Shown here in pieces: positions 18,045 through 30,216 of a DNA stretch of 31,848 nt; the stretch's first letter is position 1, and the number at the start of each line of letters is the position of its first letter. The stretch comes from Anaerovoracaceae bacterium. GTDB lineage: Bacteria; Bacillota; Clostridia; Peptostreptococcales; Anaerovoracaceae. Made by a program: the position numbers and the translations under genes. The notes under the pieces were generated by a model. The model ran no database searches. It was not told the DNA's origin and was given only the letters and a program-made list of their open reading frames with translations. The stretch spans positions 1 through 31,848 of the forward strand of contig JAZUDB010000134.1 of assembly GCA_045639385.1 (NCBI GenBank), read 5' to 3'.

Positions 18045-18120
18045 AAACGGGGACGGTCAGCGAGGGAAAATATCCGAGACAGCCCTTAGAATTGCCGTAT
18101 AACGATCAAAAATACCGGTC

Positions 18121-18316
18121 ATAATGTCAGAATAGATGAAAACAGGGTGTTTTGTCATTATTTTTCTCATTTTTGGCCGAATTTCGAAAAAAAGACCCTC
18201 AAAAAAGCCTGTTTTGAGGGTCATAATGTCAAGAAAGGCTTTTTTCGAGGAAAAAGTCATTGAAAATGAGATCCTTTAATGACAAACGAGGGTAATTTTA
18301 AACCTCGTGACATTAT
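18121..18316. repeat. Array of three spaced dyads AATGWCA-N23-WGWCATT
   Basis: ATAATGTCA 18121 / TGTCATTAT 18153; ATAATGTCA 18223 / AGTCATTGA 18255; TTAATGACA 18276 / TGACATTAT 18308. Every spacer is exactly 23 nt. Confidence 0.85.
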
Positions 18317-18449
18317 ACGTTTTTTGAGAAGTCCGATACGGCAAAAGACGTTTGCAAAACGGCGAAAACGCTGCATTTTTTGCCGGACCGATACAGGCAG
18401 GGCTCATATATTGTATTTTTGATAGAAAATATGAGCTGTTTCTGCAGTT

Positions 18450-25992: not shown

Positions 25993-26712
25993 ATGAAAGT
26001 TATCATTGGTTCCGAGCAGGAAATCGCTCAAATGGCAGCACAGCAGTACGTAGAGCTTCTGCAGAAGAAGCCCAACGCGGTACTGGGCGGCGCAACCGGT
26101 TCCACGCCGCTGGGTCTGTATGCGGAGCTGGCAAGACTGAACAAGGAAGGGGTCATCTCCTTTAAGGACGTTACCACTTTCAATCTGGATGAGTACGTTG
26201 GTCTGGGCGGCGACCACGACCAGAGCTACCGCTACTTTATGGACCACAACCTTTTCGATCATATCGACATCGACAAGGCCAATACCCATGTTCCCGACGG
26301 CATCAATCTTGAGAACATCAAGACATACGATGCACAGATCGAGGCGGCGGGCGGCATCGACCTGCAGATTCTGGGCATCGGCGTGGACGGCCACATTGCG
26401 TTCAACGAGCCGGGTACCCCCTGGGATTCCCTCACCCACGTGGTAGAGCTGGAGCAGAACACCAGAGAGGTCAACGCCAGATTCTTCAACAGCATCGACG
26501 AGGTCCCCACCCATGCGGTTACCATGGGCATTAAGTCCATCATGCACGCGCGCTCCATCATTCTGATGGCCATCGGCGAAAACAAGGCCGACGTGGTGGA
26601 AAAGATGATCAACGGTCCCATCGACACCCAGGTTGCTGCATCCATTCTGCAGCTCCACCCGGATGTAACCATTTATCTTGACCCTGCAGCGGCAAGCAAA
26701 CTCAGTAAGTAA
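25993..26712 (+). CDS. nagB: Glucosamine-6-phosphate deaminase
   Basis: ATG at 25993 after [57 protein letters not shown]. Confidence 0.96.
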   Translation: MKVIIGSEQEIAQMAAQQYVELLQKKPNAVLGGATGSTPLGLYAELARLNKEGVISFKDVTTFNLDEYVGLGGDHDQSYRYFMDHNLFDHIDIDKANTHVPDGINLENIKTYDAQIEAAGGIDLQILGIGVDGHIAFNEPGTPWDSLTHVVELEQNTREVNARFFNSIDEVPTHAVTMGIKSIMHARSIILMAIGENKADVVEKMINGPIDTQVAASILQLHPDVTIYLDPAAASKLSK

Positions 26713-26717
26713 TATAT

Positions 26718-26774
26718 AACCGGCAGATTCCAAAGACGAGGCAATGCCCCGGCTCTGGGGCTGCCGGTTTTTTT
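26718..26774 (+). terminator. Terminator-like hairpin after nagB
   Basis: AACCGGCAG/CTGCCGGTT arms (inner GCCCC/GGGGC alternative) followed by a T-run. Confidence 0.6.
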
Positions 26775-26800
26775 AGAAATATTATGAATACCGATTTGTT

Positions 26801-27234
26801 ATGCGAAATAAGAGAATGGAATCTACAAAATCAAAACTTTTTGCACTTTTTATACTTCTTGTTGTTGCGCTGTCCGGAAGTGCGAGAATCATGAATAGTA
26901 CGGGCACTTCTGTATCGGAATTGATTTTTAATGAGGTTGAGGAGATTTCTTTCAATTTTATCAGCGTTCCCGAAGAACCGCAAAACTGTATTATTCCGAT
27001 CGTCAAGAAGAGATAATCAACTATATCAGATTGATAAAAGTGGTGAGATATTCGGGGCCTTTTTTGAAACGGAGTACGATGGATTTGTGCTTTACTGCAG
27101 AAGATGATTTCTTTCTGTATGTCAGTGATAAATACATTGTATATGTACAACCATCTTTTCCCAGTCCTATATACCGTTATTATGAAGTGAAATCAGAAAT
27201 AGATTTTACATATTTGATGTCGTTGGTTTACTGA
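26801..27234 (+). pseudogene. Two short AT-rich ORFs (71 and 67 aa), possibly one frameshifted exported-protein gene
   Basis: First ORF has a signal-peptide-like KLFALFILLVVALSGS. The second begins 15 nt later in another frame without a clear RBS. Confidence 0.35.
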
Positions 27235-27330
27235 AAGGATGTGTTTATGAAAGGTTTTATTTCATTGTTGCTTTGTTTTTCTATTAGTACTTTCATTTCC
27301 TATTGATTGTTTAGCTTTTTTGGTATCGCT

Positions 27331-27447
27331 GTGGGAAAGATGATTAACGGCCCCATCGACACTCAGGTGGCAGCATCCATTCTGCAGCTGCACCCGGATG
27401 TAACCGTTTACCTTGACCCTGCTGCGGCAAGCAAGCTGAGCAAGTAA
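27331..27447 (+). repeat. Second copy of the last 39 codons of nagB (direct repeat of 26596-26712)
   Basis: Manual alignment gives 104/117 identical; 11 of the 13 differences are synonymous third positions. Confidence 0.95.
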
Positions 27448-27472: not shown

Positions 27473-28219
27473 ATGAAAAGAAAATTGTTAATTATAGGTC
27501 TGATGGTTTTCCTGCTGCTGCTTTGTTCCTGCGATAAGACGGAGGAAGATGCGTCCGTGAACGCCATAGATTTCAAAGGCTATTCTGCGTCGGAGATTAT
27601 GGATTGGGCAAGGGAAAACAACGTCGCATCGAGTATCCGCTTCGTTTATGTTTCCGATGATATCGGGGCAGCGTTCGGCGATGTGCTCCTCCAGAGCGTG
27701 GAGCCGGGCAAGCCGATCTCCGATGAAGGAATCGAGATTACCCTTTCACAGGGAAACCTGCTTCTTTCCGGCAGCGGGTCCGAGGTTGGGATTCCCAATG
27801 TAATCGGAAAGAGTCTTTCCGACGCCAAAGCCGAGCTGGAAGCGCTGGGTCTTTCGGTAGACAGCAAGTACGAATCTTCCGCGGAGGCAAAGGATACGGT
27901 TTTACTGTCCGATCCGCTTCCCGGCATGAGCGCAGCAGAGGGCAGCAAGGTTCTGCTGACCCTTTCTTCCGGCGAACGCCGCAGTCCGAGACTGTCTGTA
28001 CTTCTGGATATTCCGTCAACCGGACAGGAAAACAATATGATTAAAGCGTATGTGGACGGCGAGCTGGACAGATTGAAAACGGTTTGCCTGGATGCGTCCG
28101 TGCAGCGCAGAACCTTTTACTTTTACGGTTCCGGCGTGCAAACGGTAAAATTTACCGTCAACAACGAATTCCTGGCTGAATACACCTTGGATTTTGATAA
28201 GGAAACGGTGAAGAAATAA
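27473..28219 (+). CDS. PASTA-domain lipoprotein
   Basis: Lipobox-like LCSC. PASTA-like IPNVIGKSLSDAKAELEALGL...DTVLLSDPLPG...VLLTLSSG, preceded by a degenerate PASTA module. GAGGAG RBS. Confidence 0.85.
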   Translation: MKRKLLIIGLMVFLLLLCSCDKTEEDASVNAIDFKGYSASEIMDWARENNVASSIRFVYVSDDIGAAFGDVLLQSVEPGKPISDEGIEITLSQGNLLLSGSGSEVGIPNVIGKSLSDAKAELEALGLSVDSKYESSAEAKDTVLLSDPLPGMSAAEGSKVLLTLSSGERRSPRLSVLLDIPSTGQENNMIKAYVDGELDRLKTVCLDASVQRRTFYFYGSGVQTVKFTVNNEFLAEYTLDFDKETVKK

Positions 28220-28310: not shown

Positions 28311-29159
28311 CTAAGAAAGCTCGCAGGGAAGGGGACTCTTCGCTTGGAGAATTGCATCAAGAATGCATTCTGCTGTGTCGGCGGCGAAAGGCACTGCCGT
28401 TGTTTCGAAGCTGAAGAACAGATTTTTTCCCGGCGCGAGTCCCGCTTTCAAATAGCGGTTTATTTTTCGGCAGGCATCGTCGCAGTAATCCGGCGTATCC
28501 ATCAGTCCGAAATGCTCCCAGTAGATCAATTTCTTTGTTCTTGGGTGAAGAATGGTGAAGTCCGGGTAGACGGGCGGCTTGCCGTCGTTCAGGTCTAAAC
28601 GGCATTCATTTCGATAAAGAATTCCCCGGCTGAAAAGCAAATCCGAAATAATCATTTCCGATTTGGATCGAACGGGGTATCCTTTTTTTGTTTCTAAAAT
28701 CAGGGCATCACTGTGGTAAGGATTTGCGGGATAGCTTGCTTCTGCCCAGCTTTGATCCAAAGCGGCGCCGGTTTGTACCAGATTTGCATTGAGTTTCTGC
28801 AGCTCCGGCGGAAAAGTTTCCGCAATTTCTGCAGCGTCCCTGCCGCTGTGTAGCTGAAGAAAGCTGTTTGCTGCCGACAAGTTTTTCTTCATGATCGGCA
28901 GCGCGTTTTCTGCCAACCGCTTGTTTGAATACTGCCGCAGCTGCCGGGAATTTCTCCGGATATAGGTCGTGGTTCTGCGGTTTTGATTGGTTTGCCGGAC
29001 TGCGTAGTAATATTTGCTGCCGCGCTGTTCGATTTTCAAGTGCCCCGCCGGGGCGTTTTCAAGGACCTTCTCCATTTGCGAAATTTTGGATACCAGTGTA
29101 TCGCGATATTTTTGAATTAATGCGATGTAGTACATAAGAGTTTTGTGATTGCTTTGCAC
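28311..29159 (-). CDS. Uncharacterised protein with a C-terminal PD-(D/E)xK (Vsr/DUF559-like) nuclease domain
   Basis: VRSKSEMIISDLL, YRNECRL, VYPDFTI and YWEHFGLMD match restriction-fold catalytic spacing. N-terminal helical segment plus a basic/aromatic beta-hairpin. Start is GTG 29159 or ATG 29135. Confidence 0.8.
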   Translation of the reverse strand: MQSNHKTLMYYIALIQKYRDTLVSKISQMEKVLENAPAGHLKIEQRGSKYYYAVRQTNQNRRTTTYIRRNSRQLRQYSNKRLAENALPIMKKNLSAANSFLQLHSGRDAAEIAETFPPELQKLNANLVQTGAALDQSWAEASYPANPYHSDALILETKKGYPVRSKSEMIISDLLFSRGILYRNECRLDLNDGKPPVYPDFTILHPRTKKLIYWEHFGLMDTPDYCDDACRKINRYLKAGLAPGKNLFFSFETTAVPFAADTAECILDAILQAKSPLPCELS

Positions 29160-29203
29160 TCCGCTGCAAAAGATAAATTAAAATGGAAATATTTTACAGT
29201 CCT

Positions 29204-29232
29204 ATTATAACGCACGATTTTGGATTTGTAAA
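29204..29232 (-). promoter_or_regulatory. SigA-type promoter of the nuclease gene
   Basis: On the minus strand TTTACA (29227-29232)-N17-TATAAT (29204-29209). Confidence 0.7.
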
Positions 29233-29280
29233 TATATGGAAGGATAAAAACTCTTGCGGGTGTTGGTTTATTTGCAGATT

Positions 29281-29669
29281 TTCACCCAGTGTCGCTTTAT
29301 GTATGCGGGTGGGACCATGTAAAAGAGGATGGCTTCACCCAATAAGCGGGCTCGCATTCAATTGGGACCACATTTTGGGCATGATTTGGATGATTTTTCA
29401 CCCAACGAGTGGTTCATGCGGTGCTTGGACACATAAAAAGACCCTTGGACTTGCCAAGAGTCTCTAAAATCTATGCCCAATCTATTGTGTCTCCGCATGA
29501 TGGGTGAAGGCTTCGAAAAATAATAGTAGAATTCTGTGCCCACAGGGGCCTTTTAATGCAGTTTGGGTGAAACGCGCAGGGTTGCAATTGTAAACTAATA
29601 TGCCCACCGAAGTCGCCCGATACAGTTTGGGTGAAAAGCAATGGCTTGCAATCGTAAAATCTATGTCCA
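29281..29669. repeat. Bidirectional array of six TTCACCCA-N21-TGG(G/A) dyads plus one half unit
   Basis: Plus orientation TTCACCCA at 29281, 29334, 29397, each followed after exactly 21 nt by TGGGAC/TGGGAC/TGGACA. Minus orientation TGCCCA at 29474, 29537, 29601, each followed after 21 nt by TGGGTGAA (29501, 29564, 29628). Half unit TGTCCA at 29664. Confidence 0.92.
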
Positions 29670-29694
29670 ATGGGGCCCTCGCTGCAGCGGCGCC

Positions 29695-30216
29695 TTACAG
29701 CTCTTCTTCGCTGAGCACCTTGTAACCGGCGGCCAGCAGGGCGTCTGTGGTCACCCCGTTGCCGGGAACCTTCGTGCCGGAAAAGCTGCCGTCATAAATC
29801 AGGCCTTTGCCGCAGCTGGGGCTGCCGGACTTGAGAATGGCATAGTCGACGCGGTTGATTTCCGCAATCCGCAGGGCAATTTCCACACCACGGGCGTAGT
29901 TTTCGCTGACGTCGGTGCCGTCGTTCATGATCAGTGCGCGGGGCCGGGCCATCGCTTCGCCTTCCGCTCCGGCTTGCAGCGGCAGATTGCCGTCCGGGCT
30001 GTTCAAAAACAGCGGCAGAACAACGCCTTCTGCATCGCGTTGGCGTTCGGAGGGGTTCCGGGGCGTGGTTAAGCCGCCCATCTGCTCGGGGCATACGGGG
30101 ATCAGCACGTTTTCCGGGTCTTCGGCCAGGGCCAGCACCTTTTCGCAGGGCTTGGAGGCCCCGTCATATCTGCATTGGCAGCCTAAAAGGCATGCGCTTA
30201 CTAAAATCTTTGCCAT
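29695..30216 (-). CDS. DUF523-family protein (2-thiouracil desulfurase-like, Fe-S)
   Basis: VSACLLGCQCRYDG, IPVCPEQMGGLTTPR, ILKSGSPSCG, GNGVTT. Confidence 0.9.
   Translation of the reverse strand: MAKILVSACLLGCQCRYDGASKPCEKVLALAEDPENVLIPVCPEQMGGLTTPRNPSERQRDAEGVVLPLFLNSPDGNLPLQAGAEGEAMARPRALIMNDGTDVSENYARGVEIALRIAEINRVDYAILKSGSPSCGKGLIYDGSFSGTKVPGNGVTTDALLAAGYKVLSEEEL

What the first reader, a model, noticed from the sequence alone, without database searches (positions are those of the whole stretch)
28311..29669. Candidate new system: PD-(D/E)xK nuclease gene with an upstream fixed-spacer dyad array
Seen: a solitary restriction-fold nuclease gene with its own promoter, about 120 bp from six TTCACCCA-N21-TGG units whose 21-nt interiors all differ. 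The unit is inserted between housekeeping genes with no cas, integrase, methyltransferase or transposase genes nearby. Known: dual-box arrays with variable interiors next to a nuclease are the architecture of RNA-guided systems (CRISPR, TIGR-Tas), but this unit size and box sequence match none I recognise. Inference, two testable models: (a) the array is transcribed, for example by read-through from pyrR-DUF523, which ends at 29695 with no evident terminator, and processed into ~21-nt guides with short handles; (b) the boxes are DNA sites on which the protein assembles to autoregulate or act as a selfish or defence element.
Basis: partly seen in the sequence, partly recalled or inferred. Interest (0 to 1): 0.88.

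Follow-up and report, generated by a model that had tools for sequence, protein, structure and literature searches.

The report
Nuclease gene with matching DNA-site arrays
An uncharacterised nuclease gene in a gut bacterium sits beside an ordered array of paired DNA boxes that is also scattered through the genome, and thousands of related genes each carry their own version of such an array, pointing to an undescribed nuclease-plus-repeat partnership rather than a CRISPR-like guide system.

Summary
The six boxes are real and non-random, but they are not one direct array. Three units on each strand converge on a central hairpin, and the full unit is TTCACCCA-N21-TGGGNNCA.

The same unit forms 12 clusters in this 1.68-Mb genome, always with this geometry. 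The gene encodes a Vsr/EDxHD-like PD-(D/E)xK nuclease domain behind a more variable N-terminal half. It belongs to a very large family with no Pfam model. The genome holds at least five further paralogues, and each lies next to an array with its own boxes, which is also dispersed.

In 53 of 79 homologue loci from other genomes, the strongest local repeat lies within 450 bp of the gene (12.8 expected). Boxes change as the protein diverges. Box spacing is quantised at about 10.3 bp, one DNA helical turn.

Boxes are conserved while interiors drift. Interiors show no excess hairpin and no phage match.

Binding, cleavage and mobility are inferred. The guide-RNA model is not supported.

This scan has noted the sister repeat in this same window, and similar DUF559-nuclease repeats on other DNA.

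The parts
28311..29159 (-). Gene for a 274-282 aa protein. The N-terminal half (about residues 1-135) is the more variable: helix, three-stranded sheet, long helix. The C-terminal half is a Vsr/EDxHD-like PD-(D/E)xK nuclease domain. The start is GTG 29159 or, as the family alignment suggests, ATG 29135.
   Evidence: ORF. PADLOC PDC-S68 C-terminal and PDDEXK models. AF2 model with pLDDT 88.7. VIA-align Z 8.5 to I-Bth0305I, 8.4 to Bax1, 8.1 to TnsA. Invariant R156, S157, K158, E160, E177, D192, E207, H208, G210, K224 and E244 in 147 representatives.
29204..29232 (-). Sigma-70-like promoter match, TTTACA-17-TATAAT, for the nuclease gene.
   Evidence: 11 of 12 positions. Conserved in the G003 orthologue. 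A consensus match only.
29281..29317 (+). Unit 1: TTCACCCA-N21-TGGGACCA.
29334..29370 (+). Unit 2: TTCACCCA-N21-TGGGACCA, 53 bp after unit 1.
29397..29433 (+). Unit 3: TTCACCCA-N21-TGGACACA. The right box is degenerate here and reads TGGGCACA in the G003 orthologue. It lies 63 bp after unit 2.
29437..29465 (-). Central hairpin between the two converging halves. It is terminator-like on the - strand, the strand of pyrR-DUF523. The inner units start 111 bp apart, so their dyad centres are 75 bp apart.
   Evidence: The constant 109-111 bp centre in all eight complete clusters.
29472..29508 (-). Unit 4: TTCACCCA-N21-TGGGCATA.
29535..29571 (-). Unit 5: TTCACCCA-N21-TGGGCACA.
29599..29635 (-). Unit 6: TTCACCCA-N21-TGGGCATA. 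This unit is absent from the G003 orthologous array.
29655..29671 (.). Orphan right-box-like 17-mer, 94% identical to 29465-29481, with no partner left box. It abuts the DUF523 stop codon.
   Evidence: repeat D3; sequence read.
28513..28549 (-). A full unit (TTCACCCA-N21-TGGGAGCA) inside the nuclease gene, on the sense strand, encoding L-H-P...W-E-H. It is probably a product of codon choice; its significance is unexplained.
   Evidence: Not a general feature of the family.
18123..18436 (.). Gene-less copies of two other box families of the same genome. There are three AATGWCA-N23-WGWCATT units (18123-18314), whose cognate paralogue is on contig C29. There is one GCTCATA-N21-TATGAGC unit (18402-18436), whose cognate paralogue is on C63/C70.

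Best explanation
The gene encodes a site-specific DNA-binding nuclease. A variable N-terminal half probably carries recognition and dimerisation. The C-terminal half is a conserved Vsr/EDxHD-like PD-(D/E)xK catalytic domain. Its cognate sites are the two boxes of each 37-bp unit: TTCACCCAA on the left, and TGTGCCCAA or TGGTCCCAA on the right when read as the reverse complement. The half-site centres lie about three helical turns apart.

I propose that a dimer sits on each unit, with the sequence-free N21 interior beneath it. Neighbouring dimers would then line up on one face of the helix, because unit centres are spaced 5, 6 or 7 turns apart. This would build a symmetric nucleoprotein complex around the array centre.

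The gene-adjacent array is the 'home' copy. The other clusters are gene-less copies of the same kind of element. Together they form a nuclease-plus-cognate-dispersed-repeat partnership that works like REP/RAYT or NTS/Ssn, with different parts.

Shown here: the gene-array linkage across the family, paralogue-specific box families, dispersal, box conservation, helical phasing, and unit-number and presence/absence polymorphism.

Inferred: that this protein binds the boxes, that it does so as a dimer, that it cuts or nicks, and that cutting drives copying or maintenance of the arrays.
For: 1. Non-random unit with fixed geometry. There are 39 full units against 0 for the control pattern, and 12 clusters. 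Same-strand periods are 53 (x9), 63 (x11), 62, 64, 64 and 74. Converging centres are always 109-111 bp, and units never diverge.
2. Every paralogue in the genome lies next to an array with its own boxes, and each box family is dispersed. Unit counts are 28, about 21, 9 and 17, against 0 for the controls.
3. In 53 of 79 homologue loci from other genomes the top local 7-mer cluster lies within 450 bp of the gene (12.8 expected, z = 13). It is upstream in 27 and downstream in 26.
4. Box similarity falls with protein identity. Pairs sharing at least 6 of 7 box positions make up 57% at >=70% identity, 16% at 50-70%, 4% at 40-50% and 0% below 40%.
5. Across 48 loci with different boxes, spacing peaks at 51-52, 61, 71-72, 82-83, 92-93 and 102-104 bp. 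The period is 10.3 bp with vector strength 0.70 (n = 125).
6. Between this array and its orthologue, 78 of 80 box positions are conserved against 176 of 217 other positions (p = 1.4e-4). The orthologue has 3+2 units.
7. The F1 clusters tested (C134, C195, C6) share nothing detectable but boxes and geometry. F2 and F3 copies are 72-84% identical over 230-330 bp. One 490-bp F1 element lies in at least three flank contexts.
8. A 402-bp array element is present in this genome and absent in G003 between 98%-identical flanks.
9. Fold and invariant acidic, histidine and lysine residues. The N-terminal half is less conserved (0.38 against 0.56).
10. The box patterns co-occur with their cognate gene: F1 in 2 of 61 genomes searched and F2 in 2 of 20, the same two genomes, which are also the only ones with the orthologues.
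Against: - No binding, cleavage or expression data exist, and complex prediction did not fold the protein-DNA job.
- The structural matches (Z about 8) are at the level the tool calls middling, and no Pfam or NCBIfam model matches.
- Co-variation and co-occurrence are confounded by shared ancestry; the two genomes with F1 and F2 are sister species.
- No target-site duplication or terminal inverted repeat was found, so no mobility mechanism is evident.
- An active nuclease with dozens of chromosomal sites needs some restraint that I cannot name.
- The consistent left/right asymmetry of the unit (TTCA against CACA) is not explained by a simple homodimer.
- Some homologues (26 of 79 by my crude detector) show no adjacent array.
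Confidence: 0.6

Rival explanations
1. Transformation or defence role, Ssn-like. The nuclease recognises its boxes on incoming or single-stranded DNA and limits or shapes natural transformation or mobile-element entry. The chromosomal arrays are the sequence tag it reads.
For: The documented precedent is Ssn/NTS, a nuclease gene linked to a repeat present in hundreds of copies that modulates transformation (PMC11893778). In 12-13 of 80 homologue loci the gene lies directly downstream of comEC on the same strand, even though those ComEC proteins are only 27-43% identical. The nuclease domain matches the C-terminus of the PADLOC defence candidate PDC-S68.
Against: In this genome no paralogue lies on the comEC contig C120. 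The helical phasing and dyad geometry point to duplex DNA rather than ssDNA. Interiors show no hairpin excess. The comEC synteny may be confined to one Lachnospiraceae clade.
Confidence: 0.15
2. Non-catalytic DNA-binding protein. This would be an autoregulator or nucleoid-structuring factor with a nuclease-derived fold. The arrays would be operator or architectural sites near terminators.
For: Upstream arrays end about 90-170 bp before the start codon in many loci. Arrays sit in intergenic regions, mostly just after the 3' end of a gene, often around hairpins. The phased arrays resemble iteron or partition-site scaffolds.
Against: E160, D192, E207, H208, K158 and K224 are invariant or nearly so in 147 divergent representatives. 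That degree of conservation is hard to explain without catalysis. Half of the arrays lie downstream of the gene. Paralogue-specific, patchy and fast-changing families (0-11 copies within one genus) look accessory or selfish rather than regulatory.
Confidence: 0.15
3. Guide-RNA array. The array is transcribed and cut into about 21-nt guides that programme the nuclease.
For: The variable interiors have a fixed length between short conserved boxes. Read-through from pyrR-DUF523 would transcribe units 6-4 in the sense direction up to the central hairpin.
Against: - Units converge from both strands.
- Orthologous interiors differ by point changes, not by spacer turnover.
- Other homologues have near-identical tandem units.
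- The 10.3-bp quantised spacing has no meaning for RNA.
- There is no Rfam match, no phage match to the interiors and no RNA-binding or Cas/Nop partner.
- The same units are scattered in 12 clusters.
Confidence: 0.03
4. Chance adjacency. The array is an ordinary dispersed repeat that happens to lie next to an unrelated gene.
For: The unit occurs at 11 other places in the genome without the gene.
Against: Adjacency recurs for all paralogues here and in 53 of 79 loci elsewhere, each with different boxes.
Confidence: 0.02

Closest known systems
REP/REPIN elements with their RAYT gene (PMC3116915, PMC3337134)
   Same: One gene per repeat family. The gene is physically linked to its own repeat. Many gene-less copies lie in intergenic regions, mostly just after the 3' end of a gene. 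Several gene-repeat pairs with different sequences coexist in one genome. The repeat changes together with the protein.
   Different: The protein is a PD-(D/E)xK/Vsr-like nuclease, not an HUH-Y1 transposase. The units are not hairpin palindromes: interiors show no excess folding. Instead they are two boxes a fixed distance apart, arranged in helically phased, converging arrays. The gene usually has the array on one side only (43 of 49 loci).
Ssn nucleases with NTS/SRM repeats (PMC11893778)
   Same: A small site-specific nuclease whose gene is associated with a short sequence present in many genomic copies. There are thousands of homologues with differing specificities. A subset of the present family lies next to comEC, which hints at a link to DNA uptake.
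   Different: Ssn is a GIY-YIG enzyme that acts on single-stranded DNA. Here the fold is PD-(D/E)xK and the site grammar indicates duplex DNA.
I-Bth0305I, EDxHD homing endonuclease (PDB 3r3p; PMC3239194)
   Same: It gives the best structural match to the C-terminal domain (Z 8.5). It has a multidomain homodimeric architecture with a Vsr-like C-terminal nuclease and a footprint of about 60 bp (abstract). That makes it a plausible model for a dimer spanning two boxes.
   Different: It is encoded in a phage group I intron and cuts the intron-less allele. The present genes are free-standing, and their sites are intact, repeated and adjacent to the gene.
TnsA of Tn7 (PDB 1t0f) and multi-site transposon ends
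   Same: The nuclease fold is similar (Z 8.1), with an S-x-x-E ... PDF ... E layout. Arrays of several phased protein sites in inverted orientation recall transposon ends.
   Different: No TnsB/C/D-type or other transposase gene recurs beside the gene. The two 'ends' face each other across only about 37 bp. No target-site duplication was seen.
CRISPR and TIGR-Tas arrays
   Same: Short conserved boxes separate variable stretches of fixed length, next to a nuclease gene.
   Different: See the guide-RNA rival: converging orientation, helical phasing, drifting interiors, no Cas or Nop-domain partner and no protospacer matches.

Membership tests
PD-(D/E)xK / Vsr-like (EDxHD, DUF559, TnsA) nuclease fold | Alpha-beta-beta-beta-alpha-beta core that matches solved members. 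| tested here: met
   Residues about 130-267 match I-Bth0305I (Z 8.5), Bax1 (8.4), TnsA (8.1) and NGO0050 (7.1). Z about 8 is middling by the tool's own note. All the top non-helical hits are, however, nucleases of this fold.
PD-(D/E)xK / Vsr-like (EDxHD, DUF559, TnsA) nuclease fold | Conserved acidic (and Lys or His) catalytic residues. | tested here: met
   E160, D192 (in PDF), E207-H208 (in WEHFG), K158 and K224 are 97-100% conserved in 147 representatives. Their spatial clustering in the model was not checked.
PD-(D/E)xK / Vsr-like (EDxHD, DUF559, TnsA) nuclease fold | Match to a curated sequence model of the superfamily. | tested here: inconclusive
   No Pfam or NCBIfam hit for the protein, and no significant Pfam hit for any of the 15 aligned members. 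PADLOC PDC-S68 gives E 3e-22 and HEAT_CxxC_PD-DEXK gives E 4e-4.
REP/RAYT (REPtron) | HUH-Y1 (IS200/IS605-like) transposase. | tested here: not met
   The fold and motifs are PD-(D/E)xK.
REP/RAYT (REPtron) | The repeat is an imperfect palindrome that folds as a hairpin. | tested here: not met
   The 37 distinct units fold no better than interior-shuffled controls (mean z -0.18, p = 0.27). Only the CCCA/TGGG dyad is palindromic.
REP/RAYT (REPtron) | The gene is linked to its own repeat, which is also dispersed in many intergenic copies. | tested here: met
Ssn/NTS | GIY-YIG catalytic domain. | tested here: not met
Ssn/NTS | Sequence-specific cleavage of single-stranded DNA at the repeat. | not testable with these tools
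   This needs biochemistry. The site grammar argues for duplex DNA.
CRISPR / TIGR-type guide array | Units all in one orientation, transcribed as one precursor. | tested here: not met
   Three + and three - units converge, and the same holds in all clusters.
CRISPR / TIGR-type guide array | Variable segments match foreign DNA, or turn over as whole spacers. | tested here: not met
   There was no phage match at E <= 5 beyond chance-level hits. Orthologous interiors differ by point substitutions.
CRISPR / TIGR-type guide array | Associated Cas or Tas (Nop-domain) effector or adaptation genes. | tested here: not met
   The neighbours here are DUF523, PyrR, a PASTA protein and a nagB-like deaminase gene (Pfam for the first three; nagB read from the ORF). 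No recurrent neighbour appears in 80 loci except comEC in 13.
Homing endonuclease gene (EDxHD type) | Lies inside an intron or intein, or interrupts its own target site. | tested here: not met
   The gene is free-standing between housekeeping genes, and its candidate sites are intact and repeated beside it.
Tn7-like element (TnsA with partners) | Co-encoded TnsB/TnsC-type proteins, and ends with a 5-bp target duplication. | tested here: not met
   No such neighbours were found. No duplication was found at the boundaries of the multi-copy element.

The most novel reading that the evidence does not exclude
These genes and arrays are a new class of selfish or domesticated mobile DNA. A Vsr/EDxHD-like PD-(D/E)xK nuclease assembles on helically phased dyad sites and, by cutting within or beside them, drives the copying, inversion or spread of gene-less arrays. 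This would be a repeat-mobilising mechanism unrelated to HUH, DDE, serine or tyrosine enzymes. It would operate in thousands of gut Bacillota lineages, possibly coupled to DNA uptake through comEC.
Probability: 0.3. Interest if true: 0.9.

Novelty: new variant of a known kind. Interest (0 to 1): 0.78.

Why it matters
The protein family is very large. A profile search found 10,557 cluster representatives at E <= 0.001 and 4,021 at E <= 1e-30. It has no Pfam or NCBIfam model and no assigned function.

Linking it to a readable DNA grammar gives it a first testable function: two boxes about three turns apart, with units spaced in whole helical turns. It also predicts each member's recognition sequence from its own flank. 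That would amount to a natural library of long-site DNA-binding nucleases.

The result would also explain a class of orphan intergenic repeats in gut Clostridia that break metagenome assemblies. It would extend the idea of a nuclease or transposase with its own dispersed repeat, so far tied to HUH (RAYT) and GIY-YIG (Ssn) enzymes, to a third nuclease superfamily. One homologue sits in a cultured isolate, Hominiventricola filiformis CLA-AA-H276 (locus L086), so bench tests are feasible.

Tried and rejected
- Rfam found nothing, either at gathering score on the whole window or at E <= 1 on 29100-29750. There are no tRNA or tmRNA genes.
- Pfam and NCBIfam on the protein, and Pfam on 15 family members, gave no significant hit; PHROGS gave only one weak hit at E 0.11.
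- A sequence search of the PDB gave only noise. Foldseek against the PDB gave no hit at E <= 0.001; only the exhaustive VIA-align search found the nuclease fold.
- The hairpin test on unit interiors was negative, so I dropped a REP-like ssDNA hairpin reading.
- BLAST of the array against 50,697 phage records gave only chance-level hits.
- No public RNA runs were listed for this stretch, so transcription could not be examined.
- Complex prediction with two protein copies and one double-stranded unit was not folded and gave no verdict. It is not evidence either way.
- I tested whether the cognate box generally lies inside the gene. Nine of 49 loci have it against about 4.4 expected, at scattered positions. 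One of 15 other genes with LHP-x7-WEH encodes a full TTCACCCA unit. The in-gene unit is therefore probably codon chance.
- I looked for terminal inverted repeats or target duplications at the boundaries of the 490-bp multi-copy element and found none that was convincing.
- The empty-site comparison for the C126 cluster failed because the G003 contigs break there.
- Polarising the C195 presence/absence with other genus members failed because they are too divergent.
- I considered sigma-54 or ECF promoter arrays, T-box, DnaA boxes and attC sites by eye. I dropped them because the box sequences or spacings do not fit. This rests on my own knowledge and was not tested.
Full report
**What is at the coordinates.** The window is contig C134 of a 1.68-Mb, 87%-complete assembly. 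Its nearest public relative is labelled an Anaerovoracaceae MAG (L027).
- The ORF 28311-29159(-) encodes 282 aa from GTG. The family alignment starts at the ATG at 29135.
- Upstream lie a TTTACA-17-TATAAT match at 29232-29204 and then the boxes.
- TTCACCCA occurs seven times in the window against 1.14 expected. It lies at 29281, 29334 and 29397 on the + strand and at 29508, 29571 and 29635 on the - strand, plus once inside the gene.
- Each intergenic copy is followed after exactly 21 nt by TGG.
- Set in register, the unit is 37 bp: TTCACCCA-N21-TGGGNNCA. Position 9 is usually A and position 29 tends to be T. The unit is therefore an imperfect dyad, CCCAA-N19-TTGGG, with different outer bases on the two sides (TTCA and CACA).
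- The six units are not one direct array. Three on each strand converge on a 38-bp centre that holds a hairpin, which is terminator-like on the pyrR-DUF523 strand.
- Dyad centres are 53, 63, 75, 63 and 64 bp apart.
- I verified by Pfam that the neighbours are DUF523 (2-thiouracil desulfurase family), PyrR and a PASTA-domain protein.

**The unit is genome-wide, with a fixed grammar.** The strict pattern gives 39 hits in this genome and none for the reversed control.
- Clustered boxes make 12 clusters on 11 contigs. The 50 isolated boxes equal the chance expectation of 51.
- In every cluster, + units precede - units.
- Same-strand periods are 53 (x9), 63 (x11), 62, 64, 64 and 74.
- The two inner, opposed units always start 109-111 bp apart, and units never diverge.
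- Clusters lie in intergenic regions, mostly just after the 3' end of a gene.
- The clusters at C134, C195 and C6 have no BLAST-detectable similarity to any other place in the genome, so they share only boxes and geometry. The boxes and spacing have therefore outlived the interiors.
- One 490-bp version lies in at least three different flank contexts at 87-90% identity. It sits at several contig ends, which marks a repeat that breaks the assembly.

**The protein.**
- Pfam and NCBIfam give nothing for the protein. Pfam gives no significant hit for any of the 15 aligned members either.
- PADLOC matches residues 136-254 to the C-terminus of the candidate PDC-S68 (E 3e-22), and weakly to a PD-DEXK model.
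- An AlphaFold2 model has pLDDT 88.7. It shows an N-terminal helix, a three-stranded sheet, a 33-residue helix and a C-terminal alpha/beta domain.
- Foldseek against the PDB found nothing significant. An exhaustive structural search put I-Bth0305I (Z 8.5), Bax1 (8.4) and TnsA (8.1) at the top for residues about 130-267.
- In AlphaFold DB the same domain is seen fused to UvrD-like helicases, DUF559 and TniQ proteins.
- A profile search of 1.84 billion representatives found 10,557 relatives at E <= 0.001 and 4,021 at E <= 1e-30. Among the 150 best hits listed, most are 250-270 aa.
- In 147 of them, R156, S157, K158, E160, E177, D192, E207, H208, G210, K224 and E244 are 97-100% conserved. The N-terminal half is much less conserved (0.38 against 0.56).
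- I take this as a probably active Vsr/EDxHD-like PD-(D/E)xK nuclease with a variable front half.

**The gene-array link is a family property.** The genome holds matches on seven further contigs, which make at least five further paralogous genes. Each lies next to an array with different boxes.

| Paralogue contig | Boxes of its array | Position | Units genome-wide (control 0) |
|---|---|---|---|
| C63/C70 | GCTCATA-N21-TATGAGC, periods 53, 54, 74, 63 | downstream | 28 |
| C117 | GGTCCCA-N22-TGCANTTT | downstream | 9 |
| C108 and C34/C96 | CCCCCA...TGGGGG | downstream | 17 |
| C29 | AATGWCA-N23-WGWCATT | upstream | about 21 (40 strand-wise hits) |

- All five families together make 48 clusters.
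- Two of these families have gene-less copies in this very window, at 18123-18436.
- I then fetched 80 homologue loci from other genomes, mostly Lachnospiraceae. For each I asked where in the +/-4 kb the most locally repeated 7-mer lies.
- In 53 of 79 loci it lies within 450 bp of the gene. Uniform placement predicts 12.8 (z = 13). A stricter 'random intergenic region' null predicts roughly 20 by my estimate.
- It lies upstream in 27 and downstream in 26, and usually on one side only (43 of 49).
- The boxes differ from locus to locus, for example ATGCCCA, ATACCCA, GTTCCAA, TACCCCG and TACCTAA. Inspected arrays show dyads with interiors of 21-27 nt.
- In two of three other genomes tested, the cognate dyad is also dispersed: 29 units in 9 clusters, 9 units at 7 places, and 3 units only at the gene.

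**Evidence that the boxes are read as duplex DNA by the protein.**
1. Box similarity tracks protein identity. Pairs sharing at least 6 of 7 positions make up 57%, 16%, 4% and 0% in the >=70, 50-70, 40-50 and <40% identity bins. Shared ancestry contributes to this trend.
2. Across 48 loci with unrelated boxes, same-strand box spacing falls in narrow peaks at 51-52, 61, 71-72, 82-83, 92-93 and 102-104 bp. The best period is 10.3 bp with vector strength 0.70 (n = 125). That is the helical repeat of B-DNA, so the units sit on one face of the duplex. Such phasing would have no meaning for an RNA.
3. Between this array and its orthologue in the sister species G003, 78 of 80 box positions are identical against 176 of 217 others (Fisher p = 1.4e-4). 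G003 has 3+2 units, so units are gained or lost at the edge. A similar difference in array length separates L066 and L067, which are about 95% identical.
4. Interiors fold no better than shuffled ones.
5. There is no Rfam family, no phage match to the interiors and no recurrent Cas-like neighbour.

**Signs of turnover.**
- Copy number in the genus runs from 0 to 11, including 0 in two 96-98% complete genomes.
- The F1 pattern was found in only 2 of 61 related genomes searched, and the F2 pattern in only 2 of 20 genus genomes. They are the same two genomes, which are also the only ones with the cognate orthologues. They are sister species, so this counts as one observation.
- The F3 gene was not found in G003, which has one F3 cluster against seven here. 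G003 is only 77% complete.
- F2 and F3 copies are 72-84% identical over 230-330 bp. They therefore descend from whole multi-unit elements.
- The 402-bp C195 array element is absent from G003 between flanks that are 98% identical. The adjoining 776-bp segment, which carries a gene I read as a helix-turn-helix regulator, is inverted there. I could not tell which state is ancestral.

**Mechanism.** I propose a dimer that spans one unit. The recognition parts would sit on the two boxes about three turns apart, and the catalytic domains over or beside the sequence-free interior. I-Bth0305I is a precedent for this shape: a homodimer with a Vsr-like C-terminal nuclease and a footprint of about 60 bp (PMC3239194). 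Phased units would let dimers stack along one face and build a symmetric complex about the centre. Cutting or nicking there could seed the gains, losses, inversions and new copies seen. All of this step is inference.
- The system works like REP/RAYT (PMC3116915) or NTS/Ssn (PMC11893778). It is a member of neither, because the enzyme class and the repeat structure both fail their defining tests.
- The unexplained points are the constant left/right asymmetry of the unit, what restrains a nuclease with dozens of genomic sites, and the full unit inside the gene at 28513-28549. That in-gene unit looks like codon chance.

**Relation to earlier notes of this scan.**
- A follow-up on 18117-18316 of this window (e1-5304336) had linked the AATGWCA repeat to a nuclease gene on another contig. 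I confirmed that link and found that it is one of at least five such pairs.
- Notes on other genomes describe DUF559-type nuclease genes with palindromic repeats. I did not test those notes. They concern a related fold but a different protein family and repeat type.
- I found no paper describing the present family.

Noticed in passing
L051, L060, L066, L067, L076, L078, L079, L085, L087, L093, L099, L101 (about 250-600 bp upstream of the homologue gene): In 12-13 of 80 homologue loci the nuclease gene lies directly downstream of comEC (Pfam Competence plus Lactamase_B) on the same strand. The ComEC proteins of these loci are only 27-43% identical. This may be an old synteny, or a functional link to DNA uptake. 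In the window's own genome no paralogue lies on the comEC contig C120.
   Followed up: partly
window 26596-27447 and 27473-28219; L018 (G003:C24): In the sister genome G003, nagB abuts the nuclease gene directly. This window has extra DNA between them: an AT-rich stretch, a second copy of the nagB 3' end (27307-27447 encodes the same C-terminal peptide) and the PASTA-domain gene. That block is an insertion here or a deletion there.
   Followed up: partly
G000:C195:7354-8631 (L107) against G003:C54:7858-8646 (L112): Next to the array that is present or absent, a 776-bp segment carrying a gene I read as a helix-turn-helix regulator is inverted between the two genomes. In this genome the segment is bounded by two inverted copies of a terminator-like hairpin. 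G003 has a single hybrid hairpin.
   Followed up: partly
G061:C94:9960-10218 and 53227-53485 (the genome of L088): Two four-unit TTGGAAC-N26-GTTCCAA arrays with a 73-bp period are near-identical inverted copies 43 kb apart on one contig. They look like the ends of a large invertible or mobile segment.
   Followed up: no
G000:C117:1735-2577: The closest paralogue (38% identical) and its GGTCCCA array lie between genes I read from their translations as uvrB and uvrA (no domain search was run on them). The same contig also carries clusters of two other box families.
   Followed up: no
window 28513-28549 (-): A complete TTCACCCA-N21-TGGGAGCA unit lies inside the nuclease gene, over the codons for LHP...WEH. 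It is kept in the G003 orthologue. One other homologue (L072), whose array boxes (GCCCAAA) resemble this family's right box, also has it.
   Followed up: yes
L048 and L050 (JAGAQI010000047.1, about 150 kb apart, opposite orientation): Two 8.7-kb stretches that include the homologue gene and its array are 100% identical on one contig. This is either a large inverted duplication or an assembly artefact.
   Followed up: no
L088 against L091; L033 against L038 and L040: The gene-plus-array module is more diverged than the housekeeping flank next to it. The proteins are 81% identical while the flank is 95% identical at the DNA level. This suggests faster evolution or allelic replacement of the module.
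   Followed up: no
L081:258-418 (Roseburia MAG): A distant homologue carries TCACCCA ... TTGGGCA box pairs like those of this window, but only about 16 nt apart. Similar boxes may therefore be used with a different spacing.
   Followed up: no
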